Positions 15,603 through 32,970 of a DNA stretch of 64,000 nucleotides are shown here, piece by piece. The stretch is from Candidatus Poribacteria bacterium (GTDB taxonomy: Bacteria; Poribacteria; WGA-4E; WGA-3G). A model generated the notes under the pieces. The model ran no database searches. It was not told the origin of the DNA and saw only the letters and a list, made by a program, of their open reading frames with translations. Each line of letters starts with the position of its first letter. Position 1 is the first letter of the stretch. The translations under genes were made by a program, and so were the position numbers. Where the stretch lies: positions 405,116-469,115 of the forward strand of contig OZ244563.1 of the NCBI GenBank assembly GCA_965217715.1, written 5' to 3'.

Positions 15603-18041
15603 ATGTTGCCCAACGTGGAAACAGCCTTAGAATTTGATAAACTCAAAAAGCTGTTAAAAAGATATACGGCTTCTGAGTTAGGAAATGCGCGGATAGATAA
15701 ACTTGCTCCCTCTGATTCACTGGACACAGTACATAATTTATTGAAATTGTGTACCGAAGCGAAAACCTATCAGCAGCAGTCTGGTGAAATACCTTTGAAT
15801 GGATTAACAGATATTGGTCAGACGCTTCGACACGCCGCAATTACCGGGACTATCTTAGAACCGGAGGCGTTCTTAAATCTTGCAAAGGTAGCACAAATCC
15901 CATCCACAATAAAAAAGAAATTTAATAATCAGGACCGTGAAAACTTTCCACGACTATCATATATTGTAGATTCACTGCCTGTTTTTGACGAAATCGTTGA
16001 AGTTATTTCATATTGTATTAGCCCTGAAGGAACTATTTTAGACCAGGCGAGTTCTGAGTTACGTGCAATCCGACGTAAACTTATCAAATTCCGTGAAAAC
16101 ATACATCAAAAATTAGAAGCGATCCTCCGTTCCCCTGACCATCAAAAATCAATTCAGGAATCGGTCATTACCTTTAGAAATAATCGTTATGTAATACCTA
16201 TCAAACAGGATGCCAAATCTTTTTTTAGCGGCGTTGTTCAAGGTCAATCTACCAGTGGTGCGACCTATTTTATGGAACCGTTGTCAATAGTTGAAATGAA
16301 CAACGCTCTTCATGAGGCAGTTGAAGCTGAAAAAAGGGAGATGCGTAAGATTCTGTTAGAGTTAACAGACCGAGTACGAGAACGGATAGATGATTTTGAA
16401 TCTGCGCTTAATCTACTCGCTGAACTTGACTTCCTAAATGCCAAAGCCCGATTTAGCCATGAATTAAATGCCGTTGAACCAAAATTGAATACGAACGGTG
16501 TTGTCAACATGTCTGAAGCGCGACATCCTCTCTTGGAATTCCAAGTCCGAGCGAATTCTCAATCCCAAAAACAAAAAACATCAAAACCTGACAAACCAAA
16601 ACATAGACAACCTACACATGTTGTTCCTACAGATATACGCGTTGGCAAAAGTTTCAAGACGCTTGTGATCACTGGACCGAATACTGGCGGAAAAACTGTT
16701 GTGCTTAAAACGTTAGGACTATTGTGTTTGATGGCACAATCTGGGTTACATATTCCGGCAGCAAATGGTAGCAAACTCCCGATTTTTAACCACATTTTTG
16801 CCGATATTGGTGACGATCAAAACATAGAACAGAGTCTCAGCACCTTTTCCTCACATATCACGAAAATTGCTGAAATGCTGAACGCAATTGAGGACTCTGA
16901 ATCCGCACATTTTCTTGTCTTATTGGACGAGATCGGTGCGGGCACCGACCCGACTGAAGGAACGGCACTCGGTATGGCAATCTTGGCTTGGTTGAGTGAA
17001 CGAAATGCCAGTACGATCGTTACTACCCATTATGGTGCGCTTAAGGCTTATACCCATACACAAAAAAACATGGAAAACGCTTCAATGGAATTTGATTGGA
17101 GCACATTGAAACCGACTTATCGTTTGAAGATAGGTGTTCCTGGAAGTAGTAATGCACTAAAAATCGCACAACAATTGGGACTTCCTTCCTGTATACTTGC
17201 TGAGGCAGAAAGCAATTTGGGAAATAATAACATCGCTGTGGAAGACCTACTCATCCAACTACAACAAACACAACAGGAATTGGATACTGAACGTAAACAA
17301 CTGCATGAAAAGATCCACCACGCTGAAACAGAATATCAGAAACATAAAACACTTATTGAAACATTTGACACAGAACAACAAACACGCCTACAAGAAGCTG
17401 AAAAAGAAGCACTGGAAATCATATCTACAGCTCGTCGAACGGTAGACAACATAGTTGCAGACATCCGTCGTGAACAAGCCTCCAAAGCCAGTATCCACGA
17501 AGCATTCTCAAAAATTGAAATTGCCAAAAAACAACTTAAACCTGACCCACCCGAAAAACTACCTAAGAAGAAAAAACTCACAGTCAATGTTGGCGACAAA
17601 GTTCGAATTATACAGTTAAATCGATTCGGAGAGGTTACCGCAATTGACAAACATGGCAGTATGCCTTTACAGATTCGGGTTGGGAGTATGCAGATGCAGC
17701 TTTCTTATAACGATATTAACAATGTTGTGCCAAAAAAAGAGTCGCAACATCTCACTCCATCCGTGCTGGACATGCAATATAGCAAGGCAAATTCAGTTAA
17801 AGAAGAACTCTGTATTCACGGGATGCTTGTTAGTGAAGGGTTAGACGTTACCGATAAATATCTGGATGATGCATACCTTGCCGGATTATTAAGCGTGAGA
17901 ATTCTACACGGAAAAGGGACTGGTGCGCTACGAAGTGCGGTTCACGAAACATTAGATGCAAACCCGCACGTCGCTAATTATCAATACGCTCCACAGAGTG
18001 AAGGTGGAGAGGGTGTTACTGTCGTTAAATTCAAAGAATAA
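15603..18041 (+). CDS. mutS2: endonuclease MutS2 (MutS-family ATPase with C-terminal Smr domain)
   Basis: Walker A 'TGPNTGGKTVVLKTLG', the MutS 'STFSSH' motif, a long coiled-coil, and a C-terminal Smr domain 'LHGKGTGALRSAVHETL'. Confidence 0.9.
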   Translation: MLPNVETALEFDKLKKLLKRYTASELGNARIDKLAPSDSLDTVHNLLKLCTEAKTYQQQSGEIPLNGLTDIGQTLRHAAITGTILEPEAFLNLAKVAQIPSTIKKKFNNQDRENFPRLSYIVDSLPVFDEIVEVISYCISPEGTILDQASSELRAIRRKLIKFRENIHQKLEAILRSPDHQKSIQESVITFRNNRYVIPIKQDAKSFFSGVVQGQSTSGATYFMEPLSIVEMNNALHEAVEAEKREMRKILLELTDRVRERIDDFESALNLLAELDFLNAKARFSHELNAVEPKLNTNGVVNMSEARHPLLEFQVRANSQSQKQKTSKPDKPKHRQPTHVVPTDIRVGKSFKTLVITGPNTGGKTVVLKTLGLLCLMAQSGLHIPAANGSKLPIFNHIFADIGDDQNIEQSLSTFSSHITKIAEMLNAIEDSESAHFLVLLDEIGAGTDPTEGTALGMAILAWLSERNASTIVTTHYGALKAYTHTQKNMENASMEFDWSTLKPTYRLKIGVPGSSNALKIAQQLGLPSCILAEAESNLGNNNIAVEDLLIQLQQTQQELDTERKQLHEKIHHAETEYQKHKTLIETFDTEQQTRLQEAEKEALEIISTARRTVDNIVADIRREQASKASIHEAFSKIEIAKKQLKPDPPEKLPKKKKLTVNVGDKVRIIQLNRFGEVTAIDKHGSMPLQIRVGSMQMQLSYNDINNVVPKKESQHLTPSVLDMQYSKANSVKEELCIHGMLVSEGLDVTDKYLDDAYLAGLLSVRILHGKGTGALRSAVHETLDANPHVANYQYAPQSEGGEGVTVVKFKE

Positions 18042-18094: not shown

Positions 18095-19963
18095 ATGGCA
18101 ACAAAAAACTATATACCACCCGAAACTATTGAGGAAATTCGGACACAGAATAATATCGTAGACGTGATTTCTGAATCTGGTGTTGCACTCAAACAAGCTG
18201 GGAGGAATTACCAGGCACTCTGTCCATTTCACGAAGAAAAGACACCTTCTTTTTCTGTGTCACCCGAAAAACAGATATTCTACTGTTTTGGATGCCAAAC
18301 AGGTGGTAATGTCATTCATTTCCTGCAAAAACATGAAGGGAAAACTTTTATTGAGGCTATTGAATGGCTGGCAGAACGGGCGAATATTGCGTTGCCGACG
18401 CGAGATGCAAAATCCAGCGCCCGACAAAAACTGATCAATGATTTGAGTGAACTTAACAGGTTCGCTGTGAAATATTACCACGAATTACTTCGCACTGGAC
18501 AACATAGTCAGCATGCACGGGAATATCTCAAAAACCGCGGTATCCTCTCACAAACCAATCAAATGTTCCAACTCGGTTACGCAAAACAACAGAGGCGGGA
18601 TTTGGTAAAAGCAGCGACACATGAAGGTTGGACTGTGCAGCAATTGGTTGATGCAGGATTGATAAAGAACGAAGAAAAGGGTCCTCAAGACCGTTTTTGG
18701 AATCGGATACTATTTCCGATTCACAATGCCCAAGGTGTACCAGTAGGATTTGGAGGACGTGCGTTATCTGATGAACATCAACCGAAATATCTAAACTCAC
18801 CCACAACGGTTCTATACGACAAAAGCAGAATCCTATTCAATCTTGACAAGGCAAGACAATCAATATCAAGAAAACAGTCTGCCATTCTCGTAGAAGGGTA
18901 TATGGATGTGCTGATGCTATATCAACACGGGATTGAAAACGTAATAGCCTCGTCAGGAACATCTTTAACCGATGAACATGCAGCGTTATTGAAACGGTAT
19001 ACGCCAGAAGTTGTCATTGTGTTTGATGGTGATGCTTCAGGGTTACAAGCAGCGCAGCGTGGGTTGCATAGGCTCATCGGTGAAGAGATTCGTGTGCGTA
19101 TTGCCCTCATGCCGAAAGGTGATGATCCAGATTCATTTGTCAAGCAAAACGGCGCGGATGCTTTCAGTGAACTAATCGATAAAGCGATTAACCTAATTGA
19201 GTTCCAAATTCAATCCGCAATCCAAGAAAAAAATATCCGACGTCCTGATGTAAAAACCCAAGTTGTCAAAGACATCAGCGCAATCCTTGTGAATATCAAA
19301 AACCGAGTTGAACGAACAGAATACGTAAAATACGCAGTAAAGGAACTTGAAATTGATGAAGGATTACTTTGGCGGGAATTGCGAGATTTAGGGTTGAAAG
19401 AAAACACAACGCATCGCAACGCACCCAGCCAAAAGACAACTTCAAAAAAGTTGTCACCACGCGAACAAATTGAATGGCAACTCGTCCAAGTTTTAATCCA
19501 AGTTCCTGAACTTATTCCCGAAGTTAAAACCCTACTACACTACCAAGAAATAACAAATCCTCGTCTCGAAAATATTGTTCAGCTGCTTTGGGATGCCTGT
19601 GAGAATGAAGAAAACATCGATATACAACACATCCTTAACACCTGTGAGGACGAAACTCTTAAAAGCATTATTACCAACGCACTTATAAGCAAAAAGAGCA
19701 TACCTAATCCCCATGCCAGAATTGAGGGGTGTCTCAGGAAACTGAAAAGTTTCATATTACAAGAAGTTGAACAACGTATCCGATCAAATGCCCTTGCAGA
19801 TGGGGACGATAATCTTGAAACACTTAAAGAACTGGTAGAGTTATCAAACCAAAGGCGTGCCTTCGTACAAAAAGACCTTCTTGAAAAGACAGGAAATTCT
19901 CCACAGTCTGACGAAGAAACGGATAACCCTCAAATTACTGATAATATTGAGAAGGAGAACTAA
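18095..19963 (+). CDS. dnaG: DNA primase
   Basis: Zinc-finger 'CPFHEEKTPSFSVSPEKQIFYCFGCQTGGNVIHFL', an RNA-polymerase core, and TOPRIM 'ILVEGYMDVLMLYQHGIENVIASSGTSLT...VVIVFDGDASG'. Confidence 0.95.
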   Translation: MATKNYIPPETIEEIRTQNNIVDVISESGVALKQAGRNYQALCPFHEEKTPSFSVSPEKQIFYCFGCQTGGNVIHFLQKHEGKTFIEAIEWLAERANIALPTRDAKSSARQKLINDLSELNRFAVKYYHELLRTGQHSQHAREYLKNRGILSQTNQMFQLGYAKQQRRDLVKAATHEGWTVQQLVDAGLIKNEEKGPQDRFWNRILFPIHNAQGVPVGFGGRALSDEHQPKYLNSPTTVLYDKSRILFNLDKARQSISRKQSAILVEGYMDVLMLYQHGIENVIASSGTSLTDEHAALLKRYTPEVVIVFDGDASGLQAAQRGLHRLIGEEIRVRIALMPKGDDPDSFVKQNGADAFSELIDKAINLIEFQIQSAIQEKNIRRPDVKTQVVKDISAILVNIKNRVERTEYVKYAVKELEIDEGLLWRELRDLGLKENTTHRNAPSQKTTSKKLSPREQIEWQLVQVLIQVPELIPEVKTLLHYQEITNPRLENIVQLLWDACENEENIDIQHILNTCEDETLKSIITNALISKKSIPNPHARIEGCLRKLKSFILQEVEQRIRSNALADGDDNLETLKELVELSNQRRAFVQKDLLEKTGNSPQSDEETDNPQITDNIEKEN

Positions 19964-20521
19964 ATGGCGAATTTAGAAAATGCACACTCACTCGATTTTC
20001 AGTTTAAAGAAGTTGAACAAAATATCAATGAACGCGAACAGGAAATTTCGCGCCTCGTGAAGCAACACAATATCCCCGCAGAATGGTTTGATAGAGAATT
20101 CAACGCTGAAACCCATAATTTTGAAACAGACGCTGTTAAGGAAGCGTATCTTAAAATTGCTCGTTATCAGCACGAAATTAAACAATACATTAATACTTTC
20201 TGCATTTCTCGCGAGAAGTTACAAGATATTACGAAACAGATTGATTCCGGCATAATTAATAATGCCCAAGATGCCAAAATGGCGATTGTAAAAGCAAATC
20301 TGAGGCTGGTCGTTAGCATCGTTAAGAAATATGGGCAAGAAGCTCAAGGTCGTGAATTTTTCGATCTGATTCAAGAAGCCAACATCGGTTTAATGAAAGC
20401 TATTGATAACTATGATTATCAAGGCGGTTTTCAGTTTAACACTTACGTTACTTGGTGGGTACGTCAAAGTATTTCCCGTGCTATTGCTTCAGCAGAAGGA
20501 AACGATGATCTTGATACTTAA
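19964..20521 (+). CDS. truncated sigma-70 paralog covering regions 1.2 to 2.4 only (no region 1.1, 3 or 4)
   Basis: The 185-aa product aligns at about 65% identity to RpoD residues ~180-345 of the gene downstream (KEVE-NI--REQEI-RL--QHN-P-EWF...[22 protein letters not shown]...DLIQE-NIGLM-A-D--DYQ-GF-F-TY-TWW-RQSI-RAIA). It ends 'SAEGNDDLDT*' at the point where RpoD continues '[12 protein letters not shown]'. Its ATG overlaps the dnaG stop (TAAATG) and a GAAGGAGAA RBS precedes it. Confidence 0.7.
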   Translation: MANLENAHSLDFQFKEVEQNINEREQEISRLVKQHNIPAEWFDREFNAETHNFETDAVKEAYLKIARYQHEIKQYINTFCISREKLQDITKQIDSGIINNAQDAKMAIVKANLRLVVSIVKKYGQEAQGREFFDLIQEANIGLMKAIDNYDYQGGFQFNTYVTWWVRQSISRAIASAEGNDDLDT

Positions 20522-20642
20522 GAAACTCGTAAAACTGTCAATTATAGGCGGGTTTTGTTCAGAAAATTTTCGCACAGACACTAAAATCTAACGAACAACA
20601 GAAAGTCCGAAAACGAACGAAATTCAAAAGGAGAACGAACCG

Positions 20643-22250
20643 GTGGATTTAGGTAATACACACCTACTTGATTTTAATGAATCTGATAACACGGATCAGG
20701 CTGAATTTGATGACTTAATGGAATTCACTCCAGGGGAAATCAGTGAACGTGAAGATCTGATTAAAGTTTATCTACGCGACATGGGGAAAGTTCCGTTGAT
20801 AGATAAAGAAAAGGAGATTCAATTATCTCAGCAAATTGAGATGGGACTCCGCCAGGCACAAGCTGCAACATTTACTACTCGACTTGCGGTAGCAGAGGTG
20901 CGAAAACTTCTCTATAAAATCATCATTGCTAAAAAACGGGCATCTGATATAGTTGATATGCAAATTTCGAGTAACTCAACCCGTGATAAGGAACGTAAGC
21001 TGCGCGAAAAAGTAGAAAAGATGATGCGAGTCATTGAAACTTTAGAATTGGAATATCTTCTTGCTGCGAAGAAAGCGGCTAAGAATAATGCAGTCGTAGA
21101 ATTTGAAACAGTTGGAAGTTATACAAACTTCGTCAAACATCTTGAGCAACTGAGGATTGACCGAGAAGAGATTAGCAAAATATCAGGACAGATTAAAGAA
21201 GTTGAACGGAATATTACTGACCGTGAACAAGAAATCGCACGACTCCAAAATCAACATAATCTTCCGCAAGAGTGGTTCAATGGAAGGCTAAACTCTAAAA
21301 CTCATAATTTTAAAACGGTTGCTGCAAAAGAAGCATATATTAACATCGTCCGCTATCAACGCGAGATTCAACAATATCTAAATACAATCGGTAGCTCTCG
21401 CGACTCCCTCCAAGCTATTACCAAACAGATTTGTGTTGGCGAAACCAACGCACAAGACGCAAAAATGGCTATTGTTGAAGCAAATCTCAGGTTAGTTGTT
21501 AGTATCGCAAAGAAATACAGACACCAAGCACCTGGACTTGAATTCCTCGATCTGATTCAGGAAGGCAATATAGGTTTAATGCGAGCAGTAGACAAGTTTG
21601 ATTATCAACGCGGTTTCAAGTTTAGCACTTACGCCACCTGGTGGATACGTCAAAGTATTACCCGCGCAATCGCGGACCAAGGTCGCACTATCCGTATTCC
21701 GGTCCACATGCATGAAAGAATCAATAAACTCAGGCGAGCAGAGCGTTCACTTATCCAAGATTTAGGTCGACGACCTACACCAGAAGAGATCGCTGCAGAT
21801 ATGGGAATTCCAGCTGAAAAAGTCAGAGAAGTTTTAAGGATTGTTCCGGAAACTGTCTCATTGGAAACACCTATCGGAGACGATGATGATGACAGCCAAT
21901 TAGGGGATTTCATTGAAGATGCAAGTGTGCTGTCACCAGCCACAGAAGCTGAGCTTAGCATTCTCAAAGAACGTATTCAGGAAGCACTCGCCGATCTGTC
22001 TGAACGGGAACGAGAGGTGATTGTCCTTCGCTTCGGAATTGAAGATGATACCATTGACCCATTGTTGTCTGAAACAACACGCAAACGGATTGCGGAACTT
22101 TGCATTACTACCGGTTACCCAAAAACACTTGAAGAGGTCGGTGTCGTTTTTGGTGTCACTCGAGAACGGATCCGCCAAATTGAAGCGAAAGCCCTCCGTA
22201 AACTTCGCCATCCAGTCCGAAGCCATCGCCTACGTGGCTTCATAGAATAA
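20643..22250 (+). CDS. rpoD: RNA polymerase sigma factor RpoD (sigma-70)
   Basis: GTG start after an AAAGGAGA RBS. Region 1.2 '[15 protein letters not shown]', regions 2.1-2.4 '...[44 protein letters not shown]', region 3, and region 4.2 '[30 protein letters not shown]'. Confidence 0.95.
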
Positions 22251-23065: not shown

Positions 23066-23704
23066 ATGACATATCAACGCGGTCCACATTACTCAGGTAA
23101 GTGTCCATTCAAGATTGTCCCAGAAGATCCGCTCTCTGCTGATCAGTCAATACGTCATTGTGTTGCTTGTGCGACAGAGTACAACACGCGGTTGGAAAGT
23201 CTTAAAGAAGATTTCCATCAAATCGCTATGTTGACGGTTCTGGAAGCGATGCCGAAGTATGACCCGAACCATCCGAGCGGTGCCAGTTTGACTACGTTTA
23301 TTAAGTTAAGCGTGTGTAAACGCCTCTGGGCAGAGCGGCGGAAGGAACTAACACATATTCCATTTCCGCTTGATGAGCAACCCACGGATGATGACAACTG
23401 GACGCCAAATCCGTTAGTTGATGGTTTGAATGCTGAAGCATGTGCGCATGAAGCATTAGAAGACGAAGTGATTCGACAGCTTGAGGTGGAACAATTCTGT
23501 GAACACTTACCTCAATTTTTGGCAAAACTTACCGAAAAACAACGCCGCGTCCTTGAAATGAAGTATTTTGAGGAGCGCAGCGGTGTTGAGATAGCCAAAG
23601 CACTCGGTATCTCTAAAGGTAGGGTGAGCCAAATTATGAAAACCGCTTTGGAAAAGGTGAAAAAGGCATACCTCCTTGCATTAGAGAAAGGTTTTAAATT
23701 TTAA
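23066..23704 (+). CDS. alternative sigma-70-family sigma factor (group 3/4-like) with Cys/His-rich N-terminal extension
   Basis: Region 2-like 'PKYDPNHPSGASLTTFIKLSVCKRLW' (FDP--G--F-TYA--RIR pattern) and region 4 HTH 'LTEKQRRVLEMKYFEERSGVEIAKALGISKGRVSQIMKTALEKV'. The first ~45 aa carry C13, H31, C32 and C35 (GKCPFK...RHCVAC). Confidence 0.7.
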   Translation: MTYQRGPHYSGKCPFKIVPEDPLSADQSIRHCVACATEYNTRLESLKEDFHQIAMLTVLEAMPKYDPNHPSGASLTTFIKLSVCKRLWAERRKELTHIPFPLDEQPTDDDNWTPNPLVDGLNAEACAHEALEDEVIRQLEVEQFCEHLPQFLAKLTEKQRRVLEMKYFEERSGVEIAKALGISKGRVSQIMKTALEKVKKAYLLALEKGFKF

Positions 23705-26313: not shown

Positions 26314-29300
26314 TTATTCAAATTGACCTCTTACCGTAAGTGCGCTTGCGACTGAGAGGTAATCCCTTCCCTCTTCAACCCTATCGTGGTTGTAGCTAAG
26401 TCCCAAATGTAGATTCGCTGTTAGATGGTCACTGAGTTTGTAGCCTGCACGTAAAGTTGTCTCGTATCGTTCAGACCGTTCCTCTTTGTTGGCACCGTAG
26501 TTTTCTCTGCGAATTGCCAATGATAAGGTATTTGTCAGGTCAATGTCGTGCTTAAGTTGTATTCTGCCGAAAAATGGCACGCGTATGCCACCTTCGGTCC
26601 GGTAACGGTAGTCAATACTAAAGTTAGGTGTGACGATGAAAGCTTTGCTCTCAATTCCACTTCGCAGATGATCGCGAAGAGTCGTGCGAATACCTAATGA
26701 AGTCCTGGTTTCTTCGCTCCATTTATGTAGCCAACTCAGCGATGGGGTGTGTGCAGCACTGTCGCTTAGCGTAACTACAAGATTACCACTTTTCCGTATC
26801 GTATAACTATACCGAAGTTGAAAACTTGTGGCTTGTTGTGCATTTAGCTTAACATCCCCTTCGTAGGTTTCTGCGTGTGATGTATATGTGCTACCGTAAC
26901 TTTTCCGAAAGCTATCAGATGTACTGATATTTGTTCCGAAGGAAAACCATTTCCATGGATCCACTGAAGTACGGACTGTGTAGCGATTACTGTTACGCGA
27001 ATTAGTACGTTCCTCTGCTTCTCTATCAAGTTCCCAGATGTCTATCAGCGACTGACCAGATTCAAGTTGGCGAAAGGATTCAGAAGCAGTGAATGTCGCA
27101 TTGGTGTTTATCGTAAATGTATTGATTATTCGCTGTAAAAAACCTTCCGGTTTAGGTTGTTGCGTGGCAAGAGAACCTGTTGCTGCAGGACTGGGACGCT
27201 GTTTTTGTTCCATCTCCGCTTTATCACGGTTAATCCAGTCATTTTGATCTTCAACTATTTTTTGGATTTGCGTTTCATCAACACCCTTATCACGTAACTT
27301 TTCAAGCCGCTGTTCAATCGGGGTCTGTTGATCTGACTTTTCGATCATTCCATCCTGACTCTCTTCTAAGGCTACAGTTTCCGGTTTTTCCTTATTAAAC
27401 AGCCACCCAAACCATTTTTGAATACGAAGATTCAGACCCAGATTTACGTTTCCGTTAAGTGAAGCGTCTTTCTTTACATTAAACCAATTTTCTCTGAAAC
27501 TCACACGGCTTGTGACTGTGGGACGCAAACCAATAAGATCGCGATTGAGGCGTGGTGTAAGTGAAAGTCGGTGTTCACGTTCAGCAATTGAGAAATATAG
27601 CGGAATTTCTTCATTAGAATCCTCTTCCACAGAAAAATTGGTGTTCGTTACGCCATCCCCCAAAAATGATGTTCTATATCGATTCGGATCACGTTTCTCA
27701 AGTGTTCGCCGCACATCATAACTCGGACTGAGACTGAAAACAGTAATTGGACTAATATTAAGCGTTATAGAGCCACTATCTGTTTTTTCATCTCGATTCC
27801 TACCATAGCCGTAACTGTAATAGGATGTTGATGTTGTAGCCGTATCTGTTGCCGTTTCAGGTTTTGCAAGAATATCCTCATGCCGATACTGCACATTGAA
27901 CCCAAGTTTTGAACCGAGATTATATCGAAAAGTACCTGTGTATAGATGGCTAATTTGTGTGCCTTGTCGTTCGTTCCAAAAGTCTTGATAATTGTAGGAG
28001 AATCCGAGGTTGGGAAAAGGATTTCGGTTAAACTGCACCGAAACATCTCGGTTTAATGTTTCGCTCTTTCCACTAACAAAAGAGCTGTAACTTCCTCGTA
28101 GCGCTTCAGTTTCAGATTCCTGTTCTCGGATAGAGTACCGTATTGGAAGCCATGTAAAAATCGTGACATCAGCATCAATATTGTAGTCGTTGTTTGTAGT
28201 ACTATAGCCACGGGATGATAAACGTTGCCGTCCGATTTCCCCAGCCCCGCTCTCAAAATCTTTGTCTTGGCTTGCATAACCGCCACGGAGTTGGATAACA
28301 CTACCAAGTGAAACAGCCATATTTCCACGTCGTGCCCATCCAGAGCGGACGAGTGGATCACCGAGATGTATCTCGTTTACCCATACCTCACCACTAATTT
28401 CTCTGTCCGTGTCGTTTCGGATACCGAGCAATATACCTCCAATATTCTTGATGGATAGTTGCGTTCTGCTTACCCCTGTTTCTGACCCCCTGACACTAAA
28501 GCCGTCAGGATGCCCGTCAGGTGCATTTTCGATGGGAGATGATTGTAATTGATTTGGTGTCTCTGTATCAACATTCTGATCTGCAACCCGATCCGGATAT
28601 TCGTTCCTAACGTTGTCTTGCAAGTCAATCTCAATCAGTTTCCAGCCTTCAAAGTCTATCGGTACAGTATATTCATAATAGTCCGTTAGGTTTTCAAAGA
28701 TATTAACATCTTGTTCCTGTTGTGGTCGGTTGAGGAATGGGTCGGAACTATAAAAGGAACTTCGGTAACCGGTGCGTACACTGGGTGCAAGTTGTAGTAC
28801 AAAAGTAGTATGGCTTTTATCACCATACAACCATAATCGGAGTGTATCGTGCCTACTAAAATCTTGTCCTTCGCTCTGGCTAAAACCTCTTAGTTGCTTG
28901 GAGGTAATACCGTAAGAATCAGGGTATAGATAATATTCAAGGCTCAGCGTCTGTTCGCGTTGTTGCTGTGTTTGGAAGCCGAGCGAAGTCGCCGTAAATG
29001 GGTGTAGTTTTCTGAAAAGTTCGTCATCTTCAATTTCTATATAGGCACTCTGATAGTCGTCAAAACTGAAGTTATCTTTTGTGCCAACGATGAACTTTTC
29101 GAGCGTATCTTGAACAACTTGACGATCGGAAAGTCCGGTGGTTGTTTCTGCAAAAGATTTTGTGACGATACCTTGTTCCCACTTATTCCCAACAATTTCA
29201 ATAGATGCCCATTGAAATGTGCCCTTAACGCTGCCGGGCCGGTTCTTCATGAGCCAAAAACGGAAGTGCTGAACAAACACGAGACTGGGGACACGAGAGC

Positions 29301-32300
29301 CTTCCGGTAAAAATTTAGAGAGCGGGATACTAAGGAACGTCCACCCGTTTTGGTTTTTACCTTTAACCCATTCGTTTGGAATCTCATTAAGTGGGATAGC
29401 AACCTGAAAATATGCATCAACGCTATCAAGCACGCCATCGCCATTTAAATCCTCGCTATCCAAAATTTGATTATTTCCTCCAAAAGACTTTGGTTCAAAT
29501 GGTCCGTCATAACTCCAACCAACGTCCTCACCCGTATCAAGTGCTCCGTTCCCACGATATCGATGCGCATCCGGTAGATTTTCAAGGTCAAGATCAAGCG
29601 CGTCAACAATACCGTCTCCGTTGGTATCTTCTAATGTTTGTGGAAGGTCTTCACTATCAAGGTGTCCATCAGCATCCGCATCTTCATTTACAGCACCAAG
29701 ATTGAGATAGAGCGTTACATCGTCGTCACCTTGCACGCGCAACCACATCTCAACAAACCCACGCTCGGAGTAGTCAACGCCAGATTTTGAGACACCGTTG
29801 GAGAAACCGCCCCATTCTTCAACGACATCCGTAAAATCGTATCCAATTTCCATAATCAACCGTTCTTCTGTAGAAAGAGAGAGCGGCTGAATTGACGAGG
29901 CAGGTACATCTCGGTTACGCATATAGTTGCCAACTGCCTCCGCTTCTTCCCTATCTTTCAGAACGACATCAAAAAGTGCTCTATTTTCCTGTGTGGGTAG
30001 CACGGTATAATTGTGTATCGGTGTACCTGTTTGAGTCGATTCCCGGATGTATGGCACACTACTCGGTTTCCAGCTGTATTTGATCGTTGGGATGGTGGTG
30101 GTTTCTTTTACTCCTTCCATGCTATCAATTAGGGCAACCCCGACACTATTCGGGTTATTATGTGAGTAAGCCGACTCCCCACTAAAGTCAATAGAGAGTG
30201 GAAAATATTGGACATTCACGAAAGGCAGTGGGTTTATTAACCACGCCATGTTGAACTCCCTCCCAAAACTGGTGTTGATATTAAATGCTTGCAAGCGGTT
30301 GGGAACTTCGTTAACATTCGGTATCTGAGCAGGTTTCTGACCAGTCGTTAAGATATAGCCTGTTGATACATTAAAACCTTTTTGGAAAACAGGATTGAAA
30401 TAATTCATACCTGTTCCGTAACCGCCTGAATAACTGGGTCCGATTCGCGAACGACCTCCGAAACTACCAAAACTACTGTATCCACCACCACCAAAACCAC
30501 TTCCGAAACTGCTACGACCAATGCCGGAATTATTCATTCCCCTACCAGAAAACGTCCCGCTCCGAGAAAACCCGCCCGAAAAGGGGTCATTCGTAAGATT
30601 ACTGTCCAAACCTGTTTGGGAGATTTGCATGCCACCCAGACGATTAAACCTATCTTCAAGATTTTGCTCTCGCTCTGATTTCGGTTTCGGTTTATGTGTA
30701 TATTCTAACCATACACCAGCAACTGCTTGCTGTGAACCACCGAACGGTGTCTTTTCAAATTCCACTACGATTTCATCAAATTCATCAAGTTCTGTAAAAA
30801 ACCTGATGGACCCAACTTCATAAACCATCATGTAGTCCGTGTCGCGCGTGAGAACTCTCCCGTTTAACCGAACGGTTTCGCTATTTGGAATCACAAATAA
30901 TCCGACCTGATAGGTTTCAGATTGATACGAATAGTCAGCTACAATCGTGTAGACATGGTCAGTACTACGGAGGGATTCGAGATAAATCGCTTCGTTATTC
31001 AAAGAATCTCGGTATCGGTAGTAAGGATGTTGCGGATCGCTGATTTGAAAGGGGTGTAAATTTGGGAAACGCAGTAATCCTCTGTCATAGTCTATGTACT
31101 CAGGATCCACAATACCGTCGCCGTTCTGATCTAATCCAAATATTTCTATGTATGGTACAAGTCCTGCATCAGTTTGAAATGTTTCGCTTTCTCCCTGTCG
31201 GATGATTGTCAATTGAAAATCACGAGGATTGATGTTTCGGTTGCTAAGGAAGTAGACGTTATCTGCCACTGTTCCACGAAATCCTTTTGCTTTTAACACA
31301 ACATAGCCAACCTCTTCCCCCTCTTCATCAATAGATCCATCTCCGTTTTCATCAGCAAAAACATTCCCAGGATTTCCAACGCTGCCACCACCGTCTCCCA
31401 GATATTCGTAAGCGACAACAATCGTATAACTTGGGGAGATAGAAGATAAGAACTCAATCTCACCTGTTTCATAGTTAATGTTATAGTCCTGACCTGGAAA
31501 CTGTTGATTGAAGTATCCTTGACTCGTCCGTTGACCTCCTTGGTTATTGCCTACAACGCTATCATCTATATAGATTTCCACACTCCCCTGTTTTATGGGA
31601 AGATATGCGTCATGGAGCAAACCATCTTCGCCTTGGTGGATTAAATAGTACCTATTTTTAACATAATTTGCATCTACAATCTGAATACCGCGCGGCCCGT
31701 AACCGAAACTCGCTCTCCGAGACTGTCCACGGAACGTTCGCACTTCACGAACACCTTTACTTCGCGATCCGAAAAGAGTCATACGAGTGTTTTTATATTC
31801 AAACACGCCTTCCAGCCCAAACAAATTACGGTTGATATTCAAGAATCGTGTGTTCGGCAGGCTAAGTGTAATGTCACCAAAAGAGATAGTTTTAATGAAA
31901 CTTTCAGGTTTACCTTCATACCAGATTTTAATCTTCTGTTCTTTGGCACCTCCAAGTCCATACCCGCCGTAGCTACTACCATATCCACCACCATAGGTAT
32001 CACCTGCGTTGTAATCAACCGCAATATGTGTGCGTTCCCCAACACGACCATGTAATCCAATTGTTTGACTTTGCCGTATATTAATACCGGTAGAACGGGG
32101 AATACCGCTTCTGCCATAGCTGCTGTAACCACCATAACTACTGTAGCCACTCCCATAGCTCGAACCGAAACTGTCGTATCCGCCGCCAAACCCGCTGCTG
32201 TAACCGAAATCTTCATAACTATAGGAAGAAGTTAGTCCAAGGTCAAGTCCTGAACCGTAGTCACCATAACTCCCATAACTATAACCACCGTAACGGTTCA

Positions 32301-32793
32301 AATCCCCTTCTCCAAAATAGTGTGTTTTGTTGACCTCAATTGTCACGGATTGGTCAATTTTTACTTGTAGGTTTGAATCCATAGGCAGATCGATACCTTT
32401 GGTTTCCGTTTTGGGACGCGGTTTCCAATCGTAAAGTTCGGAGAGGTTACCGAGATCGGGTGGATATTTCCAGCGACGTAGTGTCTCTAAGTATGGCATC
32501 AGTATCTGATGACGCAAAGATATACCTGAATCTATATCTTCAGCTGTTGATGGGTCGTCTGTTGTTTTCGTTTTTGATTCGCTCTGAGACCACGTATTTT
32601 CTACTTTTTTGGGTTTCTTGCTAAAGGGATTCTCAACTGGAGTCGGAGTGGGTGTTTCCTCTTGAATAGGTGGAGTAGGTTCGTCTTTTTCCGCAGTGAA
32701 GGCAGGTTGTACAAAAACAAGAAAACTGAACGCAAGGAGAATCAGGAATCTATATCTATGTGAGGGCTTTGGCTTCAAAAGAATATGCTCCAT
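26314..32793 (-). CDS. giant (~2160 aa) secreted outer-membrane protein; possible SprA-like T9SS translocon or surface beta-barrel
   Basis: Signal peptide. Two Gly/Ser/Tyr-rich low-complexity blocks (GGYSYGSYGDYGSG..., GFGGGGYSSFGSFGG...). Calcium-binding Asp repeats (DADADGHLDSEDL..DTNGDGIVDALDLDLE..DSEDLNGDGVLD). Repeated 'DY-INYETGEIEFL' / 'TDYMMVYEVGSIRFF' segments reminiscent of SprA N-region repeats. A long C-terminal amphipathic beta-rich region ends in ...TVRGQFE. The SprA assignment is recalled from motif patterns and has not been searched. Confidence 0.45.
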   Translation of the reverse strand: MEHILLKPKPSHRYRFLILLAFSFLVFVQPAFTAEKDEPTPPIQEETPTPTPVENPFSKKPKKVENTWSQSESKTKTTDDPSTAEDIDSGISLRHQILMPYLETLRRWKYPPDLGNLSELYDWKPRPKTETKGIDLPMDSNLQVKIDQSVTIEVNKTHYFGEGDLNRYGGYSYGSYGDYGSGLDLGLTSSYSYEDFGYSSGFGGGYDSFGSSYGSGYSSYGGYSSYGRSGIPRSTGINIRQSQTIGLHGRVGERTHIAVDYNAGDTYGGGYGSSYGGYGLGGAKEQKIKIWYEGKPESFIKTISFGDITLSLPNTRFLNINRNLFGLEGVFEYKNTRMTLFGSRSKGVREVRTFRGQSRRASFGYGPRGIQIVDANYVKNRYYLIHQGEDGLLHDAYLPIKQGSVEIYIDDSVVGNNQGGQRTSQGYFNQQFPGQDYNINYETGEIEFLSSISPSYTIVVAYEYLGDGGGSVGNPGNVFADENGDGSIDEEGEEVGYVVLKAKGFRGTVADNVYFLSNRNINPRDFQLTIIRQGESETFQTDAGLVPYIEIFGLDQNGDGIVDPEYIDYDRGLLRFPNLHPFQISDPQHPYYRYRDSLNNEAIYLESLRSTDHVYTIVADYSYQSETYQVGLFVIPNSETVRLNGRVLTRDTDYMMVYEVGSIRFFTELDEFDEIVVEFEKTPFGGSQQAVAGVWLEYTHKPKPKSEREQNLEDRFNRLGGMQISQTGLDSNLTNDPFSGGFSRSGTFSGRGMNNSGIGRSSFGSGFGGGGYSSFGSFGGRSRIGPSYSGGYGTGMNYFNPVFQKGFNVSTGYILTTGQKPAQIPNVNEVPNRLQAFNINTSFGREFNMAWLINPLPFVNVQYFPLSIDFSGESAYSHNNPNSVGVALIDSMEGVKETTTIPTIKYSWKPSSVPYIRESTQTGTPIHNYTVLPTQENRALFDVVLKDREEAEAVGNYMRNRDVPASSIQPLSLSTEERLIMEIGYDFTDVVEEWGGFSNGVSKSGVDYSERGFVEMWLRVQGDDDVTLYLNLGAVNEDADADGHLDSEDLPQTLEDTNGDGIVDALDLDLENLPDAHRYRGNGALDTGEDVGWSYDGPFEPKSFGGNNQILDSEDLNGDGVLDSVDAYFQVAIPLNEIPNEWVKGKNQNGWTFLSIPLSKFLPEGSRVPSLVFVQHFRFWLMKNRPGSVKGTFQWASIEIVGNKWEQGIVTKSFAETTTGLSDRQVVQDTLEKFIVGTKDNFSFDDYQSAYIEIEDDELFRKLHPFTATSLGFQTQQQREQTLSLEYYLYPDSYGITSKQLRGFSQSEGQDFSRHDTLRLWLYGDKSHTTFVLQLAPSVRTGYRSSFYSSDPFLNRPQQEQDVNIFENLTDYYEYTVPIDFEGWKLIEIDLQDNVRNEYPDRVADQNVDTETPNQLQSSPIENAPDGHPDGFSVRGSETGVSRTQLSIKNIGGILLGIRNDTDREISGEVWVNEIHLGDPLVRSGWARRGNMAVSLGSVIQLRGGYASQDKDFESGAGEIGRQRLSSRGYSTTNNDYNIDADVTIFTWLPIRYSIREQESETEALRGSYSSFVSGKSETLNRDVSVQFNRNPFPNLGFSYNYQDFWNERQGTQISHLYTGTFRYNLGSKLGFNVQYRHEDILAKPETATDTATTSTSYYSYGYGRNRDEKTDSGSITLNISPITVFSLSPSYDVRRTLEKRDPNRYRTSFLGDGVTNTNFSVEEDSNEEIPLYFSIAEREHRLSLTPRLNRDLIGLRPTVTSRVSFRENWFNVKKDASLNGNVNLGLNLRIQKWFGWLFNKEKPETVALEESQDGMIEKSDQQTPIEQRLEKLRDKGVDETQIQKIVEDQNDWINRDKAEMEQKQRPSPAATGSLATQQPKPEGFLQRIINTFTINTNATFTASESFRQLESGQSLIDIWELDREAEERTNSRNSNRYTVRTSVDPWKWFSFGTNISTSDSFRKSYGSTYTSHAETYEGDVKLNAQQATSFQLRYSYTIRKSGNLVVTLSDSAAHTPSLSWLHKWSEETRTSLGIRTTLRDHLRSGIESKAFIVTPNFSIDYRYRTEGGIRVPFFGRIQLKHDIDLTNTLSLAIRRENYGANKEERSERYETTLRAGYKLSDHLTANLHLGLSYNHDRVEEGRDYLSVASALTVRGQFE

Positions 32794-32970
32794 CAATGTT
32801 TATTGTTATATGATAGTATTGTAACGGAGAAGCAAAAAGTAGGTTTACGTTTAGACAGAAAAACATTTGACATCCAAAAGAAAACCTGTTATAATTATTA
32901 TTTCTTTTTTTACTGGGAAATCTAAATTATACCGTTTCTAATTGATCGCTTTTCATTAACAACAAAAAAC

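What the first reader, a model, noticed from the sequence alone, without database searches (positions are those of the whole stretch)
19964..20521. Truncated sigma-70 paralog (regions 1.2 to 2.4 only) inserted and translationally coupled between dnaG and rpoD
The 185-aa ORF starts at the dnaG stop (TAAATG) behind a strong GGAG RBS. It is about 65% identical to the RpoD segment from the non-conserved coiled-coil through region 2.4, and it stops exactly before region 3. It keeps the core-binding helix (region 2.1-2.2: LRLVVSIVKKY, IQEANIGLMKA) and the -10 recognition and melting aromatic residues (TYVTWWVRQ). It lacks regions 1.1, 3 and 4. That makes it a potential sigma decoy competing for the beta' clamp helices, or a minimal -10-only sigma. 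At 65% identity with an intact frame, good RBS and conserved functional residues, it looks maintained rather than freshly decaying. I am not aware of a described bacterial protein of this kind encoded inside the macromolecular-synthesis operon.
Basis: partly seen in the sequence, partly recalled or inferred. Interest (0 to 1): 0.65.

Follow-up and report, generated by a model that had tools for sequence, protein, structure and literature searches.

The report
Conserved sigma region-2-only paralog in Poribacteria
A clade of sponge-associated Poribacteria keeps, between the primase gene and the main sigma-factor gene, a short extra gene that encodes only the polymerase-binding and DNA-melting domain of that sigma factor; selection has preserved it, so it is probably an undescribed transcription regulator.

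Summary
The ORF is real (19964-20521, 185 aa). It abuts the dnaG stop behind an AAGGAG site and is 64% identical to RpoD residues 175-344. The title is wrong on one point: region 1.2 is absent. The protein holds RpoD's first 12 residues, the end of the non-conserved region, regions 2.1-2.4 and about 10 residues from a dnaG-tail copy.

It arose by tandem duplication of [dnaG 3' end + rpoD 5' part], plus an in-frame internal deletion. It was not inserted.

All 19 Poribacteria loci that carry it have it intact (183-191 aa), always between dnaG and rpoD, down to about 54% identity with synonymous sites saturated. Five outgroup loci have dnaG next to rpoD and no copy. Median dN/dS is 0.24 among orthologs and about 0.1 against rpoD. 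The co-duplicated dnaG-tail copy has decayed with frame-breaking gaps.

Core-binding and -10-melting residues are retained. The non-conserved-region arm has switched from basic to acidic.

Best reading: an expressed sigma-domain-2-only protein that binds the beta' clamp helices in trans, as competitor or modulator. That mechanism is inferred, not shown.

Unexplained: synonymous sites are unusually conserved. I found no published description.

The parts
18095..19963 (+). dnaG (primase, 622 aa). Its last ~158 nt (19806-19963) are the left copy of the duplicated dnaG tail.
   Evidence: Pfam hits Zn_ribbon_DnaG, DNAG_N, Toprim and DnaB_bind. The tail aligns to 20502-20642.
19952..19957 (+). AAGGAG ribosome-binding site of the short ORF, lying inside the last codons of dnaG
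   Evidence: Read from the sequence. An AAGGAG-type site precedes the short ORF in all loci and matches the one before rpoD.
19964..19999 (+). Codons 1-12 of the short ORF, derived from the N-terminus of RpoD (MANLENAHSLDF against [11 protein letters not shown])
   Evidence: The in-frame junction LDF|QFKEVE is shared by all 19 orthologs.
20000..20263 (+). Codons 13-100: helical arm derived from the C-terminal part of the RpoD non-conserved region (RpoD ~183-270), now acidic
   Evidence: BLASTP. AF2 helices 10-35, 56-78 and 83-111. Net charge -4 to -9 in most loci against +1 to +9 in RpoD. dN/dS 0.20.
20264..20488 (+). Codons 101-175: sigma regions 2.1-2.4 (core-binding helix, -10 recognition and melting residues)
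   Evidence: Pfam Sigma70_r2. Aligns to E. coli sigma70 ~375-445. F158, Y161, W164, W165, R167 and Q168 are invariant in 25 family members.
20489..20521 (+). Codons 176-185 plus stop: short acidic tail read from the copied dnaG tail. The stop is created by a frame shift relative to dnaG.
   Evidence: Variants ending ...GNDDHETLEES match DnaG ...AIAEGDDEIETLKAL.
20522..20642 (+). Spacer: decayed right-hand copy of the dnaG tail, plus the duplicated AAGGAG site (20628-20633) that serves rpoD
   Evidence: 62% identity to the dnaG tail, with gaps of 2, 1, 1, 3, 9, 1, 1 and 2 nt. It is the least conserved stretch of the locus: 0.59-0.65 identity with 16-18% gaps.
20643..22250 (+). rpoD (primary sigma factor, 535 aa, GTG start). 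The segment 21165-21674 (residues 175-344) is the paralogous source of the short ORF.
   Evidence: Pfam r1_2, r2, r3 and r4; BLASTP.

Best explanation
Shown:
- The ORF is a real protein-coding paralog of the primary sigma factor.
- It was born in an ancestor of one Poribacteria clade by tandem duplication of the stretch running from about 50 codons before the dnaG stop to the end of rpoD region 2.4. An in-frame deletion of RpoD residues 12 to about 178 came with it or followed it.
- It has been kept under purifying selection ever since.
- It encodes sigma domain 2 only (regions 2.1-2.4), preceded by a helical arm from the non-conserved region. It has no region 1.2, 3 or 4.

Inferred:
- It is translated from the dnaG-rpoD transcript using the ribosome-binding site that originally served rpoD.
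- It docks through its region 2.2 helix on the beta' clamp helices of RNA polymerase, the main sigma-core interface.
- Without the region 3.2 finger and region 4 it cannot build a normal initiation complex.
- It therefore most likely acts in trans as a competitor or modulator at that site. Its rivals there would be full-length sigma factors on free core, and NusG-type factors or re-binding sigma on elongating polymerase. On elongating polymerase its intact -10-binding pocket could hold -10-like non-template sequences.
- The arm has switched from basic to acidic, so the protein has taken on a role different from simply repeating RpoD's DNA contacts.
For: Origin:
- The ORF start and its ribosome-binding site match the rpoD start. 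The ORF's 3' end plus the spacer align to the dnaG tail.
- The junction is readable in family members as RAIANQG|AIGNDDHETLEES, which is RpoD ..AIADQG joined to DnaG AIAEGDDEIETL...
- Outgroup loci L021, L022 and L025-L027 have mutS2-dnaG-rpoD with no copy.

Selection:
- 19 of 19 loci carrying the duplication have an intact ORF of 183-191 aa in the same position. Fourteen of these were found by methods blind to ORF integrity.
- Median ortholog dN/dS is 0.244, interval 0.19-0.31.
- Paralog dN/dS is about 0.1, with pS 0.68-0.79.
- The neighbouring dnaG-tail copy is 60-69% identical to its source in most loci (78% over 89 columns in L013; barely alignable in L020 and L024), with up to nine gaps, mostly not multiples of three.
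- The short ORFs form one clan in a neighbour-joining tree, 179/200 bootstraps.

Fold and function:
- Pfam Sigma70_r2 hit.
- AF2 model with pLDDT 85, all-helical. The best PDB matches are E. coli sigma70 chains, probability 1.0.
- Region 2.2 residues equivalent to E. coli L402/D403/Q406/E407/N409/M413 are kept. F427/Y430/W433/W434/R436/Q437 equivalents are invariant.
- The arm's charge is inverted.
- From established knowledge: sigma region 2 is the principal contact with the beta' clamp helices and recognises the -10 element (stated in PMC7892883). Free primary sigma can re-bind elongation complexes and cause pausing at promoter-like motifs (abstract of PMC5389655).
Against: - There is no expression, binding or structural-complex evidence. 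The RNA-polymerase contact is inferred from residue conservation alone.
- Region 1.2, which packs against domain 2 in primary sigmas and, to my recollection (not checked here), contributes to the -7 base pocket, is missing. Folding stability and DNA binding may therefore differ.
- dN/dS is four times that of the homologous RpoD segment (0.24 against 0.06). Several DNA-backbone-contacting basic residues (E. coli K418, R423, K426 equivalents) vary.
- rpoD-to-ORF gene conversion occurs and could contribute to keeping the frame open.
- Synonymous sites are unusually conserved. Some of the constraint therefore acts on the nucleotide sequence and is not explained by this model.
Confidence: 0.5

Rival explanations
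1. Minimal '-10-only' sigma factor. Like phage T4 gp55, the protein binds the clamp helices and directs initiation from promoters that have only a -10-like element, with help from an unidentified co-factor that replaces region 4.
For: - It has the same size class and domain content as gp55, whose sigma-region-2 homology domain binds the clamp helices and reads a -10-like element (PMC7892883).
- The melting and -11A-pocket residues are invariant.
- Split or two-subunit sigmas exist: SigO-RsoA and the proposed MtvS1/MtvS2 pair.
Against: - The protein ends about 10 residues after region 2.4. It has no helix-loop-helix extension or clamp-binding motif like gp55's.
- No region-4-only partner is adjacent. 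Its neighbours are dnaG and a complete rpoD in all 19 loci.
- The nearby 212-aa sigma is a complete ECF-type protein (TIGR02937 positions 14-164 of 165).
- Region 1.2 and the 3.2 finger are missing.
- The arm became acidic and the -12-reading T440 position varies among S, A, T and V.
Confidence: 0.15
2. The protein acts away from the polymerase clamp helices. It might be a sponge for a factor that binds sigma domain 2 or the non-conserved region (an anti-sigma, a Crl/RbpA/GrgA-type regulator or a phage inhibitor). Alternatively it might bind single-stranded DNA in connection with primase.
For: - It keeps about 90 residues of the non-conserved-region arm under constraint as strong as on region 2 (dN/dS 0.20 against 0.24-0.26).
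- It shows a directional charge change, which fits a new binding partner.
- It is always co-located with dnaG.
Against: - No candidate partner was identified.
- The core-binding residues of region 2.2 stay conserved. A pure sponge would not need them, unless the partner binds that same surface.
- The linkage to dnaG is fully explained by how the gene arose.
Confidence: 0.15
3. What is conserved is mainly a nucleotide-level element, such as rpoD promoters, a leader, or an upstream ORF whose translation (not its product) tunes rpoD. The protein itself would be incidental.
For: - Third-codon-position identity in the ORF is 0.806. The 302 windows of 185 codons in mutS2, dnaG and rpoD give 0.696 +/- 0.018, maximum 0.745.
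- Four-fold-site identity is 0.765, against 0.54-0.65 in those genes.
- The effect is strongest in the 3' half.
Against: - Third positions are still the most variable, at 0.81 against 0.90-0.93 for positions 1 and 2.
- dN/dS is 0.24 and functional residues are invariant.
- All indels are in frame.
- RNA folding energy is not unusual, z = -0.41. There is no Rfam hit.
- Promoter-like sites are no more frequent than in shuffled sequence.
- No other reading frame is conserved.
Confidence: 0.1
4. Non-functional remnant of a duplication whose reading frame is kept open only by repeated gene conversion from the selected rpoD copy.
For: - Conversion is demonstrated. In L017, 55 of the 61 differences from the near-identical genome L013 match L017's own rpoD, in a tract of about 250 nt.
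- In L013 and L017 the 60 nt upstream of the ORF and of rpoD are almost identical.
Against: - Outside that lineage, each ORF is only 52-71% identical to its own RpoD segment and paralog synonymous sites are saturated.
- ORF-specific residues (D43, F46, E49, K145, I147, the NTFC motif, the acidic arm) are shared across lineages that are themselves at synonymous saturation.
- The ORFs cluster together, not with their own rpoD (179/200).
- Conversion cannot repair the two junctions, which are also intact everywhere.
- The ORF's synonymous sites are more conserved than rpoD's.
Confidence: 0.05

Closest known systems
Sigma domain 2 of primary sigma factors (for example the protease-resistant E. coli sigma70 fragment 114-448, PDB 1SIG)
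   Same: It is directly homologous: 64% identical to its own RpoD, and aligned to E. coli sigma70 337-445. It ends at the same domain boundary. The core-binding region 2.2 and the -10 recognition and melting residues of regions 2.3-2.4 are kept.
   Different: Here the fragment is a separate, naturally conserved gene next to an intact rpoD. It lacks region 1.2 and the first half of the non-conserved region, both of which the laboratory fragment contains. Its remaining non-conserved-region arm has become acidic.
Bacteriophage T4 gp55 (late-gene sigma)
   Same: Both are small stand-alone proteins built around a sigma-region-2 fold. gp55 binds the beta' clamp helices and reads only a -10-like element (PMC7892883).
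   Different: gp55 is highly diverged and viral. It has an extra helix-loop-helix motif and a sliding-clamp-binding tail, and it works with gp33 and gp45. The Poribacteria protein is a recent, recognisable RpoD copy with none of these. Its two PHROG matches are both annotated simply as RNA polymerase sigma factor, and its viral structure matches are generic sigma factors.
Two-subunit or split sigma factors (Bacillus subtilis SigO-RsoA; proposed Francisella MtvS1/MtvS2)
   Same: In these systems sigma functions are divided between polypeptides. One small protein supplies a domain-2-like contact with the beta' coiled-coil.
   Different: Those systems have a dedicated partner that supplies region-4 function. 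No such partner is linked here; the neighbour is a complete primary sigma. MtvS1 was likened to sigma70 domains 2-3 by structure prediction of its complex with RNA polymerase, not by sequence homology; this ORF is a recognisable RpoD copy.
Sigma-dependent pausing by sigma region 2 re-binding to elongation complexes
   Same: This is a functional analogue. Region 2 bound to the clamp helices recognises -10-like non-template sequences during elongation (abstract of PMC5389655).
   Different: In known cases the actor is the full-length sigma factor. A dedicated domain-2-only protein for this role has not been described, and the role is not demonstrated here.

Membership tests
Sigma-70 family (superfamily level) | Region 2 (Pfam PF04542 / NCBIfam TIGR02937) present above the curated cut-off | tested here: met
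   PF04542 scores 62.5 bits against a cut-off of 24. TIGR02937 scores 54.8 against 42.9, but covers only model positions 5-71 of 165.
Sigma-70 family (superfamily level) | Region 4 helix-turn-helix (-35 recognition, beta-flap contact) | tested here: not met
   There is no PF04545 or PF08281 hit. The protein ends about 10 residues after region 2.4.
Sigma-70 family (superfamily level) | Binds core RNA polymerase and confers promoter-specific initiation | not testable with these tools
   Only residue conservation in regions 2.2-2.4 is available.
Primary (group 1) sigma factor RpoD | Regions 1.2, 2, 3 and 4 all present, with a score above the RpoD equivalog cut-off | tested here: not met
   NF004208 RpoD scores 144 bits against a cut-off of 555, over model positions 297-462 only. 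Region 1.2 of the parental RpoD (residues 38-69) lies in the deleted part.
T4 gp55-type minimal sigma | Region-2-like domain as the only sigma domain | tested here: met
T4 gp55-type minimal sigma | C-terminal helix-loop-helix motif and sliding-clamp-binding motif; partner co-activator that binds the beta flap | tested here: not met
   There is no sequence beyond region 2.4 apart from a variable acidic tail of about 10 residues. No partner gene lies in the conserved neighbourhood. Both PHROG matches are annotated simply as RNA polymerase sigma factor. Feature definitions are taken from PMC7892883.
Two-subunit sigma (SigO-RsoA type) | Adjacent, co-conserved gene supplying the missing sigma regions (region 4) | tested here: not met
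   The flanks are dnaG and a complete rpoD in all 19 loci. The 212-aa sigma 2.5 kb downstream is a complete ECF-type protein and is not consistently linked.
Pseudogene or decaying duplicate | Stops or frameshifts in orthologs, dN/dS near 1, decay similar to neighbouring neutral DNA | tested here: not met
   None of 19 loci is disrupted. dN/dS is 0.24. The adjacent dnaG-tail copy shows the decay expected of neutral DNA.

The most novel reading that the evidence does not exclude
A bacterial clade has evolved a dedicated, stand-alone sigma domain 2 protein, with an acidic arm that may hinder DNA contact. It is made from the same operon as the primary sigma factor and acts in trans on the beta' clamp helices of RNA polymerase. 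It would be a natural sigma mimic that tunes sigma competition and/or pausing and NusG access during elongation. No such cellular regulator class has been described.
Probability: 0.4. Interest if true: 0.75.

Novelty: new variant of a known kind. Interest (0 to 1): 0.6.

Why it matters
Isolated sigma domain 2 fragments have been laboratory tools for decades. They were used to show that region 2 binds the clamp helices, recognises the non-template -10 strand and can cause pausing. A naturally conserved gene that encodes essentially this fragment next to an intact rpoD would show that bacteria use such a fragment themselves. It would add a new type of polymerase-binding regulator: a sigma mimic rather than an anti-sigma.

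It is also an unusually clean example of gene birth. Both duplication junctions, an internal neutral control, a directional charge shift and ongoing gene conversion are all readable in the sequence.

The protein is small and its predicted target is conserved. Binding to E. coli core polymerase or to a beta' clamp-helix fragment can therefore be tested directly, even though Poribacteria are uncultured.

Tried and rejected
- Rfam scan of 19500-21000 at E <= 1: only two chance snoRNA-like hits.
- RNA folding of the ORF with its flanks: z = -0.41. The homologous rpoD stretch gives z = +0.50. There is no special structure.
- Promoter and terminator consensus scans: counts are no higher than in shuffled sequence. 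The weak hairpin after the stop is not conserved in the orthologous spacers.
- Overlapping gene in another frame or on the other strand: no frame is consistently open.
- Strong codon bias as the cause of low synonymous divergence: the effective number of codons is 56-58, similar to the flanks. There is a shift toward CGT, GGT, GCT, ACT and GAA codons. The window holds no obvious highly expressed reference genes to test this against.
- Similar region-2-only ORFs elsewhere: P0055 and P0083 are pieces of frameshift-split rpoD genes in noisy contigs, not extra copies.
- Viral origin: only generic sigma-factor matches.
- The downstream 212-aa sigma as a region-4-only partner: it is a complete ECF-type sigma.
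- Read-through or frameshift fusion with dnaG or rpoD: the gaps and frames vary among loci.
- Foldseek against afdb50, to look for other stand-alone domain-2 proteins: the library was unavailable.
- Literature searches for a description of such a protein found none.

Full report
**1. The observation**

The window contains mutS2 (15603-18041), dnaG (18095-19963), a 185-codon ORF (19964-20521) and rpoD (20643-22250), all on the + strand.
- The dnaG stop TAA is followed at once by the ORF's ATG. An AAGGAG site lies 6 nt upstream of that ATG.
- BLASTP of the ORF against the window's RpoD gives 110/171 identities (64%), E = 3e-77. ORF residues 5-175 align to RpoD 175-344.
- Pfam finds only Sigma70_r2 in the ORF. 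RpoD has r1_2 (residues 38-69), r2, r3 and r4.
- Against solved structures, ORF residues 65-176 align to E. coli sigma70 337-445. That is the end of the non-conserved region plus regions 2.1-2.4.

The title is not: region 1.2 is absent.

**2. How the gene arose**

A local DNA alignment shows that 19806-19999 matches 20502-20675. The first stretch is the dnaG tail, the ribosome-binding site and the first 12 ORF codons. The second is the ORF's last codons, the spacer, the second ribosome-binding site and the first rpoD codons.

The ORF is therefore the left copy of a tandem duplication. The duplicated unit ran from about 50 codons before the dnaG stop to the end of rpoD region 2.4.
- The ORF's first 12 residues (MANLENAHSLDF) come from the RpoD N-terminus ([11 protein letters not shown]). 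An in-frame deletion of RpoD residues 12 to about 178 then joins them to ...QFKEVE.
- The 3' junction is clearest in family members that end RAIANQG-AIGNDDHETLEES. This is RpoD ...RAIADQG fused to DnaG ...AIAEGDDEIETLKAL, the DnaG sequence seen in outgroups.
- The ORF's stop codon arises because the copied dnaG tail is read out of frame.
- The 121-nt spacer is the rest of that dnaG-tail copy.

**3. Distribution**

A protein search found about 25 clusters of 183-199 aa. They are 59-100% identical to the ORF, carry Sigma70_r2 only, and are labelled Candidatus Poribacteria where a name exists. They share the same architecture.

Nineteen loci carry the ORF: the window, L002-L012, L013, L015, L016, L017, L020, L023 and L024. 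In every one the order is mutS2-dnaG-ORF-rpoD and the ORF is intact at 183-191 aa. Fourteen of these were retrieved by methods blind to ORF integrity. Eleven came from a tblastn-confirmed genome scan, and three were anchored on RpoD.

Five more distant loci lack the ORF: L021, L022 and L025-L027, whose RpoD is 56-73% identical to the window's. There dnaG abuts or overlaps rpoD, and tblastn finds no remnant. The duplication and the internal deletion therefore predate the diversification of one Poribacteria clade and have been retained since. The isolate names (IRC, RHO, PCPOR) suggest sponge-derived genomes; this is my inference from the names only.

Two other short region-2-only ORFs in the database (P0055, P0083) are pieces of frameshift-split rpoD genes. 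They are not equivalents.

**4. Selection**

| Comparison | dN/dS (Nei-Gojobori) |
|---|---|
| ORF orthologs, median over 19 loci | 0.244 (codon-bootstrap interval 0.19-0.31) |
| Homologous RpoD segment | 0.06 |
| DnaG | 0.09 |
| MutS2 | 0.10 |

- In the paralog comparison synonymous sites are saturated (pS 0.68-0.79) in most genomes.
- The deepest ortholog pairs are also at synonymous saturation (dS 1.3 to above 2), yet the frame is intact.
- The co-duplicated dnaG-tail remnant is a built-in neutral control. In most loci it is only 60-69% identical to its source, with up to nine gaps, mostly not multiples of three, over about 130-180 aligned columns. In L020 and L024 it is barely alignable. 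Across species it is the least conserved part of the locus (0.59-0.65).
- The ORFs form one clan in a neighbour-joining tree that includes the RpoD segments (179/200 bootstraps). This fits a single origin.

**5. Gene conversion**

L013 and L017 are nearly identical genomes: flanking-gene dS is 0.01-0.02 and their aligned rpoD stretches (about 1.2 kb) differ at one position. Their short ORFs nevertheless differ at 61 positions. At 55 of those, L017 matches its own rpoD, in a tract of about 250 nt.

So rpoD occasionally overwrites part of the ORF. This cannot explain maintenance in general:
- Elsewhere, identity to the genome's own RpoD segment is 52-71%.
- ORF-specific residues are shared across the clade.
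- The two junctions, which have no template in rpoD, are intact everywhere.

**6. What the protein looks like**

- AlphaFold2 on a 59-sequence alignment gives a confident all-helical model with pLDDT 85. Its best PDB matches are E. coli sigma70 chains in holoenzyme, open-complex and sigma-dependent paused complexes, at probability 1.0.
- In region 2.2, the residues equivalent to E. coli L402, D403, Q406, E407, N409 and M413 are kept in nearly all members. I recall these as the positions where substitutions impair core binding.
- The region 2.3-2.4 residues equivalent to F427, Y430, W433, W434, R436 and Q437 are invariant in 25 family members.
- Constraint is looser at some basic residues that I recall contacting the DNA backbone (K418, R423 and K426 equivalents) and at the T440 equivalent.
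- The clearest directional change is electrostatic. The arm derived from the non-conserved region carries a net charge of -4 to -9 in 16 of 18 loci, and -1 and -2 in the other two. The homologous RpoD arm is +1 to +9 in every locus. The region 2 parts are broadly similar, with no consistent shift.
- That arm is under as much constraint as region 2 (dN/dS 0.20 against 0.24-0.26).

**7. Mechanism (inference)**

A protein made of region 2 alone should still dock there. Without the 3.2 finger and region 4 it cannot form a normal initiation complex.

I therefore favour a trans-acting competitor or modulator at the clamp helices (confidence about 0.5). It would act either on free core, against sigma factors, or on elongating polymerase. 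On elongating polymerase, sigma region 2 is known to re-bind and cause pausing at promoter-like motifs (abstract of PMC5389655). NusG uses the same site (PMC7892883 discussion).

The acidic arm argues against simple duplication of RpoD's DNA contacts. I note a loose analogy to the acidic region 1.1 of primary sigmas; this is speculation.

The minimal-sigma reading (gp55-like) is weaker. There is no C-terminal extension, no linked region-4 partner, and the nearby 212-aa sigma is complete.

The other rivals considered are these:
- a role away from the polymerase;
- a nucleotide-level element;
- a relic preserved by gene conversion.

All three are scored in the rival-explanations section.

**8. 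An unexplained feature**

Synonymous sites of the ORF are more conserved than anywhere in the three flanking genes.
- Third-position identity is 0.806. The 302 windows of 185 codons give 0.696 +/- 0.018 with a maximum of 0.745.
- Four-fold-site identity is 0.765, against 0.54-0.65.
- The effect is spread along the gene and is stronger in the 3' half.

None of the following explains it:
- RNA structure (z = -0.41);
- an Rfam family;
- a conserved alternative frame;
- strong codon bias (effective number of codons 56-58);
- recombination limited to the ORF, because the adjoining spacer is at neutral divergence.

A shift toward CGT, GGT, GCT, ACT and GAA codons hints at selection for efficient translation. 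The window has no reference set of highly expressed genes to test this.

**9. Novelty**

Databases label the protein only 'hypothetical protein', 'sigma-70 family RNA polymerase sigma factor' or 'RNA polymerase primary sigma factor'. Four full-text searches found no description of such a gene.

The closest known things are laboratory sigma domain-2 fragments, phage T4 gp55, the split sigma SigO-RsoA and the proposed MtvS1/MtvS2 pair. It fails the defining features of each as a family. I class it as a new variant of a known kind: a stand-alone, clade-conserved domain-2-only derivative of the primary sigma factor. Interest is 0.6.

Noticed in passing
window 19964-20521 and orthologs in L002-L024: Synonymous sites of the short ORF are about 6 SD more conserved than any same-sized window in mutS2, dnaG or rpoD (third-position identity 0.806 against 0.696 +/- 0.018). 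RNA structure, alternative frames and strong codon bias do not explain it.
   Followed up: partly
L017:5001-5564 compared with L013:5001-5564: There is a recent rpoD-to-ORF gene-conversion tract of about 250 nt in L017: 55 of 61 differences from L013 match L017's own rpoD. In both loci the 60 nt upstream of the ORF and of rpoD are almost identical.
   Followed up: yes
window 20000-20263 against 21189-21452: The helical arm derived from the non-conserved region is acidic in the short ORF (net -4 to -9 in most loci). The homologous RpoD arm is basic (+1 to +9) in every locus examined.
   Followed up: partly
window about 22050-22135 (RpoD residues about 470-497): The Poribacteria RpoD carries an insertion of about 22 residues inside region 4, between 4.1 and 4.2 (...[36 protein letters not shown]...). 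The Pfam r4 match spans 76 residues for a 50-position model. The insertion is conserved in all RpoD orthologs examined.
   Followed up: no
window 23066-23704: This is a 212-aa ECF-type sigma factor (TIGR02937, full length) with a Cys-rich N-terminal extension (CPF...HCVAC). Pfam detects only its region 4. It lies near rpoD in some relatives (L002-L004) but not all.
   Followed up: partly
L003:5669-7277: rpoD is split into two overlapping ORFs (124 and 432 aa) by a frameshift near codon 119, in an otherwise conserved locus. This is probably an assembly or sequencing error.
   Followed up: no
window 19843-19857 and spacers of L007, L009 and L016: The dnaG tail contains a short palindrome (AAGGCGTGCCTT). 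In some orthologous spacers its copy has become a GC-rich hairpin followed by Ts (for example AAAGGCGCGCCTTTATT in L007). That could act as a terminator between the short ORF and rpoD in those lineages only.
   Followed up: no
window 26314-32796 (- strand): A very large ORF of 2160 aa that I did not examine.
   Followed up: no
L013:7738-10564 and L017:8116-10564: Downstream of rpoD there is a type ISP-like restriction-modification gene (N6_Mtase, Eco57I, Type_ISP_C). It is intact in L013 and fragmented into several ORFs in the near-identical genome L017.
   Followed up: no
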